A stretch of 64,000 nucleotides of DNA from Terriglobia bacterium. GTDB lineage: Bacteria; Acidobacteriota; Terriglobia; Bryobacterales; Bryobacteraceae. The notes under the pieces were generated by a model. The model was given only the letters and a program-made list of their open reading frames with translations. It ran no database searches and was not told the DNA's origin. Position 1 is the first letter of the stretch. Every line of letters begins with the position of its first letter. A program made the position numbers and the translations under genes. The DNA is taken from the NCBI GenBank assembly GCA_963767545.1, contig CAVYEV010000018.1:84142-148141 (forward strand), given 5' to 3'. Positions 62,392 through 64,000 of this stretch are shown piece by piece.

Positions 62392-62601
62392 ATGTATTGT
62401 TTCTCGCGCTGGTAGTAAATTATGGCAGATCAGATGCCTCTGCGCTCGATACGCTAAAGTGTTGATGACAGGCGGTTTTGTCTGTTTTACCGAGACTGGC
62501 AAGCGCGGCTTCCAAAAGCGCATCGGATGGCTGACAAATCTGCATTGGATAACTGCAACTTCGGTCTCCGCCGCTGCCGAAAATGCTGATATGATTGGTC
62601 C

Positions 62602-63634
62602 GTGACCTTCGACGGTATCCTTGGAATGTCGGCCGGGCGGGAAGTTTTTCTCGGTTTCGCGCCAGCTAACGTGTTGCACGCCTTTGAGCTTCGCGGACGT
62701 GCTCGATGAAGATACCGGACGCGGATACCAGCGCCGTTTCAATTCTGCGCATAGCCTCGATTTCCGGAGATATATCCAGCAGGACAACAGCTCAACGATC
62801 CCGCTGACGTTCAACGCCCGCAAGCGGACGGACGGGGCGTGGCGCATCGAACGTCTGAAGTCTCCCCACGCGCGGATGATAATCGCATCCGAAGGCCAGA
62901 AAATTGTTCACCCAGGTGGACTGCCAGCACCGCCTCGGGCACCTTAATGATTTGTACTCGAGCTGCCGTTCATGTGCTTCATCGGGCTGACGGAACGCGA
63001 GGAGATGGAGGTCTTCAACGTCATTAACAGCAAGGCGAAGGGACTGAGCACGAGCCTGCTGGATTTCCACGACGCACGCTGGCGCGCGATCTGGCTGCCG
63101 AGCGGCCGGAGCTTTTCATCGCCCTGCACCTCAACAATGAAGCCAGTCCCCGTGGTATCGACCAACTCGACCTCGGCGGCAACATAACCTCCGGGCTGAC
63201 CCGGCGCGCTTCGCTGCGCACGATGCAGAAGGCGATAAAGCGGTTCCTTACGCAGACCAAGATTCTCCATAAGCAGCGCCCTGAAGTGGTCGCGCAGATG
63301 GTGCTGGATTTCTGGGCGGCCGTCGCCCTGTTTGCTGCGCGATGCATGGGACAACCCTCGGAGAACTCTTCTTTGCAAAGGCGTCGGCGTTTACGCGCTG
63401 ATGGGCATCGCAGGTGACCTGGTTAACGAGGCGGGACCGCCGGCGATCGACAAGCGTATTTCAGCAACAAGCTCGCGGATTTCATTCTGGAAGTCGACTG
63501 GAGCAACAGATGGGCCGCTTCAGCGGCCTGGGCGGAGAGGCCGGGGTCAAGGCTGCCTCAATGCCCTCCGCGCTGGAGCGCGGAACGGAAAGCTGCAGGG
63601 TGATCTCAAATGGCTAACAAAAACATCCTCCTGA
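62602..63634 (+). pseudogene. DndB-like DGQHR-domain protein (motif reads DCQHR), at least 6 frameshifts
   Basis: Colinear pieces are FDGILGMSAGREVFLGFAPANVLHA / SFADVLDEDTGRGYQRRFNSAHSLDFRRYI / KLFTQVDCQHRLGHLNDL / LELPFMCFIGLTEREEMEVFNVINSKAKGLSTSLLDFHDA / LARDLAAERPELFIALHLNNEA / LGGNITSGLTRRASLRTMQKAIKRFL..VLDFWAAV / KGVGVYALMGIAGDLVNEAG. The start could be GTG 62602 or ATG 62591/62626. Confidence 0.55.
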
Positions 63635-64000
63635 TCGAGCCCGGCTACAAGAACAAGTACCCGCCGCTCGGCCTGATGAAGATCGCTCAGTATCACGGCC
63701 CTCACGGCAAAGGGACAGGGTCAGGTTCATCAAGGGTGAGGATGACCTTCGGTCTTTGGGACCGCATGGGACCGGATCTACATCACGACGCTCTTCTCCT
63801 TCGAATTCGCGCGGATAAGCACAGAGCATCGACTTCGCGCTGAGGGTCGCGAACGGTCACGCCGACAAAATTTTCGTCGGCGGCATCGCGGCTTCACTGA
63901 TGCCCGAGCGGTTCGTCGAGAACCGAGCTGGCACGGCATCCGGTTCATCAGGGGCCTGCTGACGGGCCCCCGTCAAATCCCTCCAGCTCGACGAATTCTC
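63610..64000 (+). pseudogene. B12-binding-domain-like N-terminus of a probable radical SAM enzyme (at least 3 frameshifts; 3' end outside window)
   Basis: MANKNILLIEPGYKNKYPPLGLMKIAQYHG, then in other frames DRVRFIKGEDD, WDRIYITTLFSFEFARI and IDFALRVANGHADKIFVGGIAASLMPERF. This follows the pattern of class-B rSAM B12-binding domains. No CxxxCxxC is visible within the window. Confidence 0.3.

What the first reader, a model, noticed from the sequence alone, without database searches (positions are those of the whole stretch)
62392..64000. Divergent DGQHR (DCQHR variant) and B12/radical-SAM-like pair is far more frame-disrupted than the adjacent cassette
A roughly 200-bp divergent intergenic region (62392-62590) separates ParB-1 from a DndB-like gene. 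The hallmark motif of that gene reads VDCQHRL, with TGC where GGC would give the canonical DGQHR. The gene's end overlaps the ATG (63610) of a gene with a B12-binding-domain-like N-terminus. These two genes carry at least 9 frame breaks in about 1.4 kb. ParB-1 and the 136-aa gene have none and SNF2 has one. If the breaks are real, a putative modification or regulatory module is decaying while the putative effector module stays nearly intact. That would be unexpected for a classic modification-restriction pairing and would argue the modules act independently. If they are errors, the intact pair would be a DGQHR-rSAM association I do not recognise from described systems.
Basis: partly seen in the sequence, partly recalled or inferred. 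Interest (0 to 1): 0.65.

Follow-up and report, generated by a model that had tools for sequence, protein, structure and literature searches.

The report
Error-riddled DCQHR–radical-SAM gene pair
The many frame breaks in these two genes are almost certainly sequencing or assembly errors, not gene decay, and the genes belong to a widespread, conserved but unstudied gene cluster that is probably a DNA-modifying defence system.

Summary
62602-63617 (+) is a DGQHR-domain gene (TIGR03187, 126.6 bits) whose motif reads DCQHR. Its stop overlaps by 8 nt the ATG (63610) of a second gene. The pair carries about 23 one-base indels in 1.4 kb, against 0 in ParB-1 plus the 136-aa gene and 1 in SNF2 (p about 3e-10).

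The 'decaying module' reading fails:
- With the indels removed, the gene has no stop codon. Its dN/dS is 0.03-0.04 and its codon-position pattern (19/4/116) matches the intact neighbours.
- The indels are all single bases, mixed insertions and deletions, mostly outside homopolymers, and denser towards the window end.
- dnaE in the same window has 13 private indels, and other genes are split too.
- Sister assemblies have their own private dnaE indels.
- Hundreds of orthologues are intact.

No reads of the source could be found, so this rests on inference.

DCQHR is not a mutation. It was the motif in 120/120 close homologues and 60/60 cross-phylum orthologues. The partner is a divergent radical SAM enzyme (CxxxCxxC in 120/120 orthologues, beyond the window). 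DCQHR-rSAM-GHKL ATPase is a conserved core, often joined to the ParB/small protein/SNF2/ParB cassette, on plasmids and in defence islands. I found no description of it.

The parts
62392..62601 (.). Divergent intergenic region (210 bp) between ParB-1 and the DCQHR gene. It has conserved blocks next to both starts: CTGGTAGTAAATTATGGCAGAT near ParB-1, and TATGATTGnTCCGTGACCTTCGA spanning the GTG start.
   Evidence: Alignment with L001, L005 and L011. No sigma-70-like promoter or terminator match. One weak 11-nt inverted repeat. X1 contigs replace 62449-62532 with unrelated sequence.
62602..63617 (+). DGQHR-domain (ParB/DndB-like) gene of the DCQHR subfamily. In this sequence it is broken by 12-14 one-base indels, near 62683, 62900, 62952, 63076, 63141, 63161, 63330, 63457, 63509, 63518, 63557, 63578/63582 and 63597. 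Read through, it is 92% identical to the intact 337-aa orthologue P0001.
   Evidence: TIGR03187 at 126.6 bits against a cut-off of 58.85. Indel maps. dN/dS 0.03-0.04 and no stop codons after indel removal. Contigs of close relatives lack the inserted bases.
62919..62933 (+). DCQHR motif (GAC TGC CAG CAC CGC). The Cys replaces the Gly of the canonical DGQHR motif.
   Evidence: Read directly. DCQHR in 120 of 120 close homologues and in 60 of 60 upstream genes across phyla.
63610..63617 (+). 8-nt overlap (ATGGCTAA) between the stop of the DCQHR gene and the start of the rSAM gene. This suggests translational coupling.
   Evidence: The same 8-nt overlap occurs in 54 of 60 orthologous loci and in L001, L005, L007 and L009.
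63610..64000 (+). First ~130 codons (flavodoxin/Rossmann-like N-terminal domain) of a ~540-aa divergent radical SAM protein, cut by the window end. It has at least 5 frameshifts (about 9 indel events). The CxxxCxxC motif lies beyond the window, at residues 175-182 of the orthologue.
   Evidence: 85% identity to the L005 orthologue after frameshift-aware alignment. Orthologue: PF04055 24.1 bits (below the GA of 29.5), weak B12-rSAM and MTTase NCBIfam hits. CIRKC[TSA]FC in 120 of 120. Best fold match is MtaB, 9a6d_A, E = 3.7e-7.
61378..62391 (-). ParB-1: intact 337-aa protein, a distant ParB_N-like protein. It is the first gene of the divergent cassette.
   Evidence: ORF. 0 indels against L001 and L005. 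ParB_N only E = 0.12. Weak PADLOC hits to PDC-M38A and PD-Lambda-5_A.
60964..61374 (-). Intact 136-aa protein with invariant PD...EAK residues, a PD-(D/E)xK-like motif. Its role as a nuclease is inferred.
   Evidence: Family alignment: invariant P51, D52, G66, E67, A68, K69. No support from HMM or PDB sequence searches.
59474..60957 (-). SNF2-family helicase (494 aa in orthologues), with one one-base deletion near 59850.
   Evidence: PF00176 at 104 bits. PADLOC ZorD and DpdE helicase cores. Indel count.
58475..59481 (-). ParB-2 (336 aa in orthologues), with three deletion events (near 58547, 58849 and 58995).
   Evidence: Alignment to L005. The X1 contig shows 7 gaps over 58128-59229.
54400..57823 (-). 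Control, not part of the system: dnaE (DNA polymerase III alpha), split into at least 6 collinear ORFs by 13 window-private indels.
   Evidence: Pfam on the pieces. Three-way alignment with sister assemblies L013 and L014.

Best explanation
1. The frame breaks are sequencing or assembly errors, not biology (about 0.85). The window comes from a noisy assembly, most likely a long-read metagenome bin. The last ~1.4 kb is its worst-polished stretch, with an error density that climbs towards the window end. That is the pattern expected where coverage tapers, for example near a contig end.

2. In the organism, the two genes are intact (shown by comparison with orthologues). They are the first two genes of a conserved operon: a DCQHR-subfamily DGQHR (ParB/DndB-like) protein, a divergent single-cluster radical SAM enzyme with a flavodoxin-like N-terminal domain, and a GHKL (HATPase_c_3) ATPase. 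In Acidobacteriota a second, canonical DGQHR protein and a 278-aa protein usually follow. The stop/start overlap implies co-translation.

3. Mechanism (inferred, about 0.35). The triad is the marking half of a modification-dependent defence system. The DCQHR protein binds DNA and nucleotide, as DndB and DpdB do. The GHKL ATPase clamps or loads the complex on DNA. The rSAM enzyme installs a modification on DNA by radical chemistry. Its two further invariant cysteines (C268 and C281 in P0121) would suit an RlmN/Cfr-like methyl-Cys or resolving-Cys mechanism. The divergent cassette (ParB-1, the small PD-(D/E)xK-like protein, the SNF2 helicase and ParB-2) would then be the translocating restriction half that attacks unmarked DNA, by analogy with Dpd (DpdA/B/C plus the helicase/nuclease genes) and Dnd (DndA-E plus DndFGH).
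For: Errors, not decay:
- dN/dS of the indel-corrected DCQHR gene is 0.032 (against L005) and 0.040 (against L001). ParB-1, the 136-aa gene, SNF2 and ParB-2 give 0.031-0.043. No in-frame stops remain.
- Substitutions by codon position are 19/4/116, against 15/9/117 for ParB-1 (one search gives 23/8/119 against 17/9/123 with L001).
- All 14 lesions are one base: 8 insertions and 6 deletions. Of 12 inserted bases across the two genes, 7 stand outside any homopolymer and only 2 lie in runs of 3 or more.
- Density rises 2, 4, 8, 9 per 350 nt towards position 64000 and ignores the gene boundary.
- Contigs of close relatives from four independent metagenomes lack the inserted bases at 62683, 62900, 63161, 63330, 63509, 63518 and 63597.
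- dnaE has 13 private indels here. Sister assemblies L013 and L014 have 7 and 12 private ones at other positions.
- The 120 best database matches to a dnaE piece are all fragments of 222-440 aa, many on contigs over 100 kb with Flye-style 'contig_N' names.
- GFO/IDH/MocA and DUF2961 genes elsewhere in the window are also split.

Conserved operon:
- 2149 DGQHR homologues; the best 120 are about 310-394 aa (most 329-343) and none is a short fragment.
- The rSAM family has 268 clusters at E <= 1e-30.
- At least 572 species-representative genomes encode a relative of the rSAM, in Acidobacteriota, Alpha- and Gammaproteobacteria, Gemmatimonadota, Binatia, Verrucomicrobiota, Eremiobacterota and Armatimonadota.
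- Of the 80 best loci, 80 have rSAM plus GHKL, 60-63 have an upstream DCQHR gene, and 33-36 have the ParB/SNF2 cassette.

Defence or mobile context: next to Shedu SduA_C and ParA; next to an integrase and a TIR/NACHT protein; next to UvrD, PLD and a methyltransferase; on conjugative plasmids pR132505 and pNL1.

rSAM features: CxxxCxxC in 120 of 120, only 5 Cys in total, C268 and C281 invariant; fold match to MtaB.
Against: - No reads or second assembly of the source organism could be found. The best run holds only 23% of the k-mers, and exact-match scans of the genome and metagenome collections returned nothing. The artefact verdict therefore rests on evolutionary and statistical inference.
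- dS to the nearest orthologues is large (about 0.86), so dN/dS alone could not detect a very recent inactivation.
- Error density is very patchy. Three ORFs of 790-980 aa elsewhere in the window are unbroken, and the 1.4 kb of ParB-1 plus the 136-aa gene is clean. The artefact model needs local coverage or polishing differences that I cannot observe.
- I cannot show that the contig ends near 64000.
- No modification has been measured for the mechanism. The rSAM Pfam score is below gathering (24.1 against 29.5). The AF2 models are mediocre (pLDDT 68 and 66). The PD-(D/E)xK assignment rests on a motif only. PADLOC holds no model that would tie the rSAM or GHKL genes to defence.
Confidence: 0.8

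Rival explanations
1. The indels are real. The DCQHR-rSAM module was inactivated recently in this strain and is decaying, while the ParB/SNF2 cassette is still kept by selection.
For: Indel density in the pair is 12-23 per kb, against 0-3 per kb in the four neighbouring genes. Relative to the X1 strain, the pair is more diverged (9.4% against 2-3%). Defence modules are often lost. In other genomes the core and the cassette do occur apart.
Against: - There is no excess of first- and second-position or nonsynonymous changes. pN is 0.027-0.035, against 0.030-0.032 in ParB-1, and no nonsense substitution is present.
- Indels run at only about a tenth of the substitution rate in bacterial mutation-accumulation work (general knowledge). 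About 23 natural indels would therefore bring far more substitutions than the data allow.
- The extra divergence from X1 lies almost entirely at third codon positions (15 of 17 listed sites). That is older selected divergence or recombination, not decay.
- All lesions are single bases, with no larger deletions. They are mostly outside homopolymers, where natural slippage frameshifts concentrate.
- The density gradient runs towards the window end and across the gene boundary.
- The essential gene dnaE shows the same kind of lesion.
Confidence: 0.07
2. The genes are intact in nature, but the rSAM enzyme does not modify DNA. It makes a modified nucleotide or small molecule, in the manner of prokaryotic viperins that make chain-terminating ddh-nucleotides. 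The nucleotide-binding DCQHR/ParB-like proteins and the GHKL ATPase would act as sensors or regulators.
For: ParB-superfamily proteins bind and hydrolyse NTPs, and DndB-like proteins have been proposed as NTPases or nucleotide-degrading effectors (PMC10853773). rSAM-based defence that acts on nucleotides has precedents: viperins (general knowledge) and the rSAM-containing Ophion system (bioRxiv 10.1101/2025.09.30.679545). The core triad occurs without the nuclease/helicase cassette in more than half of the loci.
Against: The rSAM protein gave no viperin-family hit in the NCBIfam, Pfam or PADLOC scans. Its weak hits and its fold match are to nucleic-acid- or cofactor-modifying B12-rSAM and MTTase enzymes. 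The system is repeatedly linked to SNF2 and a PD-(D/E)xK-like gene, in two gene orders, which looks like a modification-restriction layout.
Confidence: 0.15
3. The cluster is not a defence system. It is a plasmid or mobile-element maintenance or regulatory module, for example ParB-like partition or silencing proteins with an accessory enzyme.
For: There are several ParB-like genes. The cluster sits on conjugative plasmids and next to ParA or an integrase.
Against: The ParB-like genes match ParB_N only marginally (E = 0.06-0.12). There is no centromere-like repeat array in the intergenic region. The SNF2 helicase is closest to defence helicases (ZorD and DpdE cores). The neighbours are typical defence genes: Shedu, TIR/NACHT, UvrD/PLD, a methyltransferase and a PIN-like protein. 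Very high conservation across phyla (64-85% for the rSAM) fits a horizontally mobile enzyme system.
Confidence: 0.08

Closest known systems
Dpd system (7-deazaguanine DNA modification and restriction: DpdA TGT-like, DpdB DGQHR ATPase, DpdC, plus the DpdD-K helicase/nuclease genes)
   Same: A DGQHR-domain protein sits at the head of a putative marking module. Apart from the generic DGQHR domain model, the best specific match for the DCQHR protein is DpdB (NCBIfam NF041060 at 45.6 bits, PADLOC PDLC02811 at 45.5 bits). The accompanying SNF2 helicase matches DpdE helicase cores (74-116 bits). Both are multi-gene, two-module systems found in islands and on plasmids.
   Different: None of the 15 loci whose gene lists I read has a DpdA/TGT or DpdC homologue. 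The DpdB score is far below the equivalog cut-off of 300. The catalytic partner here is a radical SAM enzyme plus a GHKL ATPase. The motif is DCQHR, not DGQHR.
Dnd phosphorothioation system (DndB regulator/NTPase with DndACDE, and DndFGH restriction)
   Same: The DCQHR protein is in the ParB/DndB superfamily (Pfam DndB PF14072 at 28.1 bits over profile positions 3-301). The layout is a modification module paired with a separate restriction module, and the two are often found uncoupled, as described for Dnd in PMC10853773.
   Different: The DndB equivalog TIGR03233 scores only 12.3 bits against a cut-off of 328. None of the 15 loci whose gene lists I read has dndA, C, D or E. The enzyme here belongs to the true radical SAM superfamily, whereas DndC is a PP-loop enzyme.
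Flavodoxin-domain radical SAM enzymes: class B (B12-binding) methyltransferases and MiaB/RimO/MtaB methylthiotransferases
   Same: The architecture matches: an N-terminal Rossmann/flavodoxin-like domain followed by a CxxxCxxC rSAM barrel. Weak NCBIfam hits go to B12-rSAM and to RimO/MiaB (E = 2e-6 to 6e-2). The best PDB fold match is MtaB (9a6d_A, E = 3.7e-7). The N-terminus weakly resembles B12-binding domains (7te2, 8jbt).
   Different: Every family score is far below its cut-off. PF02310 (B12-binding) gives 12.6 bits against 32.1. There are only 5 cysteines, so there is no N-terminal MTTase cluster and no SPASM or auxiliary cluster. A ~150-residue helical C-terminal region replaces the TRAM domain. 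Cobalamin binding is untested.
RlmN/Cfr radical SAM methyl synthases (analogy for the mechanism only)
   Same: A single [4Fe-4S] rSAM enzyme with two further conserved cysteines (C268 and C281 are invariant), acting on a nucleic acid (the latter is inferred here).
   Different: No sequence or fold match was found. The analogy rests on the count of conserved cysteines and on general knowledge of RlmN/Cfr.
MORC/paraMORC-type GHKL ATPases associated with restriction-modification systems
   Same: The third gene carries HATPase_c_3 (PF13589, 40.7 bits). That domain is typical of MORC-like ATPases found in R-M contexts (PMC8011034, listed but not read).
   Different: Only the ~150-residue ATPase core is recognisable. 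The rest of the 517-aa protein has no match, and HtpG and MutL hits are at E >= 0.017. No PADLOC model matches.

Membership tests
DGQHR domain family (NCBIfam TIGR03187) | Score above the curated cut-off over the full-length domain model | tested here: met
   126.6 bits against a cut-off of 58.85; protein residues 13-281 on profile positions 3-275 of 276, using the read-through translation.
DGQHR domain family (NCBIfam TIGR03187) | The literal DGQHR signature motif | tested here: not met
   The motif is DCQHR here (62919-62933), in 120 of 120 close homologues and in 60 of 60 cross-phylum orthologues. This is a distinct subfamily within the domain family.
DndB (DNA phosphorothioation, TIGR03233 / PF14072) | Equivalog-level HMM score | tested here: not met
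   TIGR03233 at 12.3 bits against 328. Pfam DndB at 28.1 bits against 29.1.
DndB (DNA phosphorothioation, TIGR03233 / PF14072) | Neighbouring dndC, dndD and dndE genes | tested here: not met
   None appears in the gene lists of L001-L012, L095 or L096.
DpdB (7-deazaguanine system, NF041060) | Equivalog-level HMM score and a DpdA (TGT-like) neighbour | tested here: not met
   45.6 bits against a cut-off of 300. No TGT-like gene in any locus whose gene list was read.
Radical SAM superfamily (PF04055) | CxxxCxxC cluster-binding motif | tested here: met
   Met in the orthologues: CIRKC[TSAG]FC or CIRRC[TA]FC at residues 175-182 in 120 of 120. In the window itself the motif lies beyond position 64000 and cannot be read.
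Radical SAM superfamily (PF04055) | Pfam score at or above gathering | tested here: inconclusive
   24.1 bits against 29.5 for the L001 orthologue. The precomputed Pfam field lists PF04055 for a minority of homologues. RefSeq names the plasmid copies 'radical SAM protein'. The fold search gives MtaB at E = 3.7e-7, from a model with pLDDT 68.
Class B (cobalamin-binding) radical SAM enzymes | B12-binding domain (PF02310) at the N-terminus | tested here: not met
   PF02310 at 12.6 bits against 32.1, on a 22-residue stretch. No PF02310 hit on the full orthologue. Only weak partial fold similarity to B12-binding domains (probability 0.85-0.96 at E about 0.05-0.1). Cobalamin binding itself cannot be tested here.
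MiaB/RimO/MtaB methylthiotransferases | N-terminal UPF0004 domain with three Cys for a second cluster, and a C-terminal TRAM domain | tested here: not met
   There are only 5 Cys in the protein and none in residues 1-174. There is no TRAM hit. NCBIfam RimO scores 25.8 bits against 357.
Natural pseudogene (neutral decay) | Relaxed selection: raised dN/dS, substitutions spread over the codon positions, nonsense substitutions | tested here: not met
   dN/dS is 0.032-0.040, the same as the intact neighbours. Codon positions are 19/4/116. There are 0 in-frame stops after indel removal.
Natural pseudogene (neutral decay) | Natural indel spectrum: a range of lengths, deletion bias, concentration in homopolymers or repeats | tested here: not met
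   All are 1 nt. There are 8 insertions and 6 deletions in the DCQHR gene. Of 12 inserted bases, 7 are outside any homopolymer.
Sequencing or assembly artefact | The same lesions in essential or unrelated genes of the same sequence, and in sister assemblies at different positions | tested here: met
   dnaE has 13 private indels here, and 7 and 12 in L013 and L014. GFO/IDH/MocA and DUF2961 genes are split.
Sequencing or assembly artefact | Reads of the source sample contradict the indels, or show low coverage there | not testable with these tools
   No run or collection holds the source sequence. Only contigs of relatives could be laid on it, and those lack the inserted bases.
PD-(D/E)xK nuclease superfamily (136-aa neighbour) | PD...(D/E)xK catalytic motif, and support from an HMM or a fold match | tested here: inconclusive
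   P51-D52 and E67-A68-K69 are invariant in 17 sequences from several phyla. No Pfam or PDB sequence hit was found; one member matches Uma2 at E = 0.1.

The most novel reading that the evidence does not exclude
DCQHR-rSAM-GHKL is the marking module of a previously undescribed DNA-modification defence system. A radical SAM enzyme writes a new, non-canonical mark on DNA. It is targeted by a Cys-bearing DGQHR/ParB-like protein and a GHKL clamp. The linked cassette (ParB, a PD-(D/E)xK-like protein, an SNF2 helicase and a second ParB) restricts unmarked DNA. The system has spread horizontally through soil Acidobacteriota, Alphaproteobacteria and other phyla, and onto rhizobial and sphingomonad plasmids.
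Probability: 0.3. Interest if true: 0.8.

Novelty: new variant of a known kind. Interest (0 to 1): 0.4.

Why it matters
There are two separate points.

Practical. The headline contrast ('the modification module decays while the effector stays intact') is an artefact. It shows how patchy indel noise in long-read-style metagenome assemblies can imitate module-specific pseudogenisation. A codon-position or dN/dS check, together with an essential-gene control such as dnaE, exposes the artefact without any reads.

Biological. Under the noise lies a real and very well conserved gene set. The rSAM protein is 64-85% identical across phyla, and relatives occur in at least 572 species representatives. 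No defence-system catalogue or paper I could search describes it.

If the rSAM enzyme does modify DNA, this would be a new chemistry for self/non-self marking, alongside methylation, phosphorothioation and 7-deazaguanine. It is directly testable, because cultured and sequenced strains carry it:
- Rhizobium leguminosarum bv. trifolii WSM1325, plasmid pR132505, RLEG_RS34150 to RLEG_RS34120.
- Novosphingobium aromaticivorans DSM 12444, plasmid pNL1, SARO_RS17520 to SARO_RS17530.
- Granulicella sp. dw_53, Sinorhizobium kostiense DSM 13372 and others.

Tried and rejected
- Source reads. Two k-mer searches of public runs gave best shares of 0.23 and 0.10. Exact 40-mer scans of genome contigs and metagenome contigs gave 0 hits. 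No read-level test was possible.
- Codon-usage frame HMM over the whole window. It cannot separate gene boundaries from frameshifts, and it labels the densest indel stretch (63329-64000) as non-coding. I used it only as a pointer.
- AlphaFold model of the DCQHR protein. pLDDT was 66, and below 50 across residues 103-161, which include the motif. Foldseek gave no match with E < 1. A profile search against PDB sequences gave nothing meaningful. No structural statement is made.
- Profile of the 136-aa family against PDB sequences and Pfam: no significant hit.
- PADLOC on all nine genes of the intact island: no model for the rSAM, GHKL, 278-aa or 136-aa proteins.
- Literature. Six full-text searches combined DGQHR, DndB, radical SAM, ParB, SNF2, MORC, HATPase, defence island and anti-phage. 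The only hits were generic Dnd and Dpd papers and the unrelated rSAM system Ophion (rSAM plus PHP plus PRTase).
- Promoter and terminator scan and repeat search of the intergenic region: nothing beyond chance.
- Rfam and tRNA scans of the window: nothing.
- Ideas rejected. Phase variation or programmed frameshifting: the indels are not in repeats, and 17 or more shifts cannot be decoded. 'G-to-C mutation of the motif': it is invariant in the family. MTTase or SPASM-type rSAM: too few cysteines.

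
Full report
WHAT IS IN THE SEQUENCE

Three-frame translation of 62560-64000 shows one protein-like reading that hops between frames. Stitched together, it matches the DGQHR domain model TIGR03187 at 126.6 bits (cut-off 58.85) over the whole model. 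It scores far below the equivalog cut-offs for DndB (12.3 against 328) and DpdB (45.6 against 300). The gene starts at GTG 62602, not at ATG 62591. That ATG opens a 4-codon mini-ORF that is conserved, stop included, in the orthologues. The gene ends at TAA 63615-63617. The motif is GAC TGC CAG CAC CGC, that is DCQHR, at 62919-62933. The stop overlaps by 8 nt the ATG at 63610 of a second gene, of which only about 130 codons fit in the window. ParB-1 is 61378-62391, so the divergent intergenic region is 62392-62601 (210 bp).

COUNTING THE BREAKS

The database holds 2149 homologues of the DGQHR protein. The best 120 are about 310-394 aa long (most 329-343), none is a short fragment, and they are 64-88% identical. 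Orthologous loci L001 and L005 carry the whole island intact. Indel counts against L005 are:

- DCQHR gene: 14 one-base indels (8 insertions, 6 deletions).
- First 390 nt of the second gene: about 9 indel events.
- ParB-1: 0.
- 136-aa gene: 0.
- SNF2: 1.
- ParB-2: 3.

A protein-guided, frameshift-aware alignment needs 12 and at least 5 frameshifts in the two genes. The read-through products are 92% and 85% identical to the orthologues. The excess in the pair is highly significant: p = 3e-10 against the four neighbours and p = 7e-5 against dnaE.

ARE THE BREAKS BIOLOGY?

Several independent lines say no.

1. Selection. With indels removed, the DCQHR gene has dN/dS of 0.032-0.040, no in-frame stop, and substitutions at codon positions 1/2/3 of 19/4/116. 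The intact ParB-1 gives dN/dS 0.031-0.039 and 15/9/117. In bacterial mutation-accumulation work, indels run at only about a tenth of the substitution rate (general knowledge). About 23 natural indels in 1.4 kb should therefore come with many tens to hundreds of unselected substitutions. The nonsynonymous excess over the neighbours is about zero.

2. Spectrum. Every lesion is a single base, and insertions and deletions are mixed. Of 12 inserted bases, 7 stand outside any homopolymer. Natural frameshifts concentrate in runs and repeats and include longer deletions.

3. Geography. Density rises 2, 4, 8, 9 per 350 nt towards the window end and ignores the gene boundary.

4. Controls.
   - dnaE (54.4-57.8 kb, minus strand) is cut into at least 6 collinear pieces.
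   - A three-way alignment shows 13 window-private frame-disrupting indels in dnaE. The two nearest sister assemblies carry 7 and 12 private ones at other positions.
   - The 120 best database matches to a dnaE piece are all fragments of 222-440 aa, many on contigs over 100 kb with Flye-style names, surrounded by other split genes.
   - A GFO/IDH/MocA oxidoreductase (about 2.2-3.4 kb) and a DUF2961 gene (break near 28005) are also split.

5. Relatives. Contigs of close relatives from four unrelated metagenomes lack the inserted bases at 62683, 62900, 63161, 63330, 63509, 63518 and 63597.

The one thing missing is direct evidence. No run or collection contains the source. I put the artefact reading at about 0.85 and real recent decay at about 0.07.

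The patchiness still needs explaining. Three ORFs of 790-980 aa and the 1.4 kb of ParB-1 plus the 136-aa gene are clean. Local coverage or polishing differences would account for this, and the gradient suggests a contig end near 64000. I cannot verify either.

THE DCQHR MOTIF

DCQHR is not a lesion. All 120 close homologues have DCQHR. So do all 60 genes found directly upstream of the rSAM gene in genomes from several phyla, and none has DGQHR. It marks a distinct subfamily of the DGQHR domain. The role of the cysteine is unknown.

THE SECOND GENE

The orthologue (P0121, 544 aa) has these features:

- CIRKC[TSA]FC at residues 175-182, present in 120 of 120 homologues.
- Only five cysteines. 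C268 and C281 are also invariant.
- Pfam Radical_SAM at 24.1 bits, just below gathering (29.5).
- NCBIfam gives only weak hits, to B12-rSAM and to RimO/MiaB families.
- An AlphaFold model (pLDDT 68) whose best PDB match is the methylthiotransferase MtaB (E = 3.7e-7), with weak partial similarity of the N-terminus to B12-binding domains.

It is therefore a divergent, single-cluster radical SAM enzyme with a flavodoxin-like N-terminal domain. The 'B12-binding' label is unproven (PF02310 at 12.6 bits against 32.1). There are too few cysteines for an MTTase-type second cluster or a SPASM domain. The family is large: 268 clusters at 50% identity with E <= 1e-30.

THE SYSTEM

In every locus examined, the rSAM gene is followed, with overlapping stop and start, by a ~517-aa GHKL ATPase (HATPase_c_3, 40.7 bits).

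A scan of species-representative genomes found at least 572 loci encoding a relative of the rSAM. They lie in Acidobacteriota, Alpha- and Gammaproteobacteria, Gemmatimonadota, Binatia, Verrucomicrobiota, Eremiobacterota and Armatimonadota. Identity to the query is 64-85% among the 80 best.

Among those 80 best loci:

- 80 have rSAM plus GHKL.
- 60-63 have the DCQHR gene directly upstream, 54 of them with the identical 8-nt overlap.
- 33-36 have the cassette ParB-1 / 136-aa / SNF2 / ParB-2.

In Acidobacteriota the cassette is divergent from the core, as in the window, L001, L005 and L011. In Alphaproteobacteria all seven genes form one co-directional operon, for example RLEG_RS34150 to RLEG_RS34120 on pR132505 of R. 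leguminosarum WSM1325. Acidobacterial copies usually add a second, canonical DGQHR protein (328 aa) and a 278-aa protein.

Other upstream partners also occur: DUF87 ATPase + HATPase_c_3 + a PP_RS20740-like protein, and PIN-like + ATP-binding genes.

The neighbourhoods are typical of defence islands and mobile elements: Shedu SduA_C and ParA, an integrase and a TIR/NACHT protein, UvrD, PLD and a methyltransferase, and conjugative plasmids.

The 136-aa protein has invariant PD...EAK residues. This is a PD-(D/E)xK-like motif without HMM support.

HOW IT PROBABLY WORKS (INFERENCE)

The layout resembles the two-module logic of Dpd and Dnd. One module is a marking module that contains a DGQHR/ParB-like NTP- and DNA-binding protein. 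The other is a helicase/nuclease restriction module.

- Marking module: the DCQHR protein, the rSAM enzyme and the GHKL ATPase. A likely clamp or loader role for the GHKL ATPase follows from what is known of MORC, MutL and Hsp90-type ATPases.
- Restriction module: ParB-1, the small nuclease-like protein, the SNF2 translocase and ParB-2.

I therefore favour (about 0.35) a radical-SAM-written DNA mark that protects self DNA from the cassette. The two extra invariant cysteines would suit RlmN/Cfr-like chemistry.

Two alternatives remain. The first is a viperin-like nucleotide product (about 0.15). It is supported by the fact that the core often occurs alone. The second is a non-defence plasmid function (about 0.08).

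COMPARISON WITH WHAT IS KNOWN

The locus belongs to the DGQHR domain family by HMM, but not by the literal motif. It is not DndB or DpdB by score or by gene neighbourhood. The second gene is a radical SAM enzyme by motif and fold, at sub-threshold HMM score, and fits no named rSAM subfamily.

- PADLOC v2 has no model for the rSAM, GHKL, 278-aa or 136-aa proteins.
- RefSeq labels the plasmid copies only 'DGQHR domain-containing protein', 'radical SAM protein' and 'ATP-binding protein'.
- Six full-text searches found no description. The rSAM-containing defence system Ophion has a different composition.

VERDICT

The frame-disruption contrast is real in the sequence but is almost certainly an assembly artefact. 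On its own it is uninteresting, except as a caution. The gene pair beneath it belongs to a widespread, strongly conserved and apparently undescribed DGQHR-rSAM-GHKL system. I class that system as a new variant of the known kind 'multi-gene DGQHR-containing modification/restriction systems'. Overall interest is 0.4. The most novel reading that the evidence does not exclude is a new radical-SAM DNA mark used for defence, with probability about 0.3 and interest about 0.8 if true.

Noticed in passing
window 54400-57823 (-): dnaE (DNA polymerase III alpha) is split into at least 6 collinear ORFs. It carries 13 window-private frame-disrupting indels: 10 one-base insertions, 2 one-base deletions and one 4-nt deletion. 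The nearest sister assemblies (L013, L014) carry 7 and 12 private one-base indels of their own in the same gene.
   Followed up: yes
window 2231-3384 (-) and 27545-28703 (-): A GFO/IDH/MocA oxidoreductase has its Rossmann and C-terminal domains in different, overlapping frames. A DUF2961 gene is cut in two at about 28005 (profile positions 1-106 and 114-235 lie in different frames). These are further signs of scattered frame errors in the window.
   Followed up: partly
window 45581-46262 (+): Remnants of a probable IS6-family transposase lie in two frames (identified by eye from the translated sequence, with no HMM test), just downstream of rplU/rpmA (44561-45189, minus strand). It is either another frameshifted gene or a real IS remnant.
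   Followed up: no
window 58128-63971, against contigs of run X1: The X1 relative is 97-98% identical over the ParB-2/SNF2/136-aa/ParB-1 cassette but only about 90.6% over DCQHR-rSAM. An 82-nt stretch of the intergenic region (62449-62532) is replaced by unrelated sequence. The extra differences sit at third codon positions. The two modules therefore have different histories, which suggests recombination at the divergent promoter region.
   Followed up: partly
L095 (R. leguminosarum WSM1325 pR132505) and L096 (N. aromaticivorans pNL1): Cultured strains carry the system on conjugative plasmids. pR132505 has a co-directional 7-gene operon. pNL1 has the 3-gene core only. In both, a 'PIN-like domain protein + ATP-binding protein' pair lies next to it, and pNL1 also has a 769-aa DGQHR-domain protein. 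This PIN/ATPase pair may be another interchangeable partner module.
   Followed up: partly
L003, L009 and L010, upstream of the DCQHR gene: An alternative upstream partner is found in place of the ParB/SNF2 cassette: a DUF87 (HerA/FtsK-like) ATPase, a second HATPase_c_3 protein and a PP_RS20740-like protein, all co-directional with the core.
   Followed up: no
20 of the 80 genome loci (e.g. L022, L026, L038, L048): The rSAM-GHKL pair is present with no DCQHR-motif gene directly upstream. For 17 of the 20, no DCQHR homologue is detectable anywhere in the locus by tblastn. Different genes occupy the upstream position, so the DGQHR partner is frequent but not obligatory.
   Followed up: partly
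window 60964-61374 (-): The 136-aa protein family has invariant H7, D33, P51-D52 and G66-E67-A68-K69 across phyla. This is a minimal PD-(D/E)xK-like signature that no HMM library recognises.
   Followed up: partly
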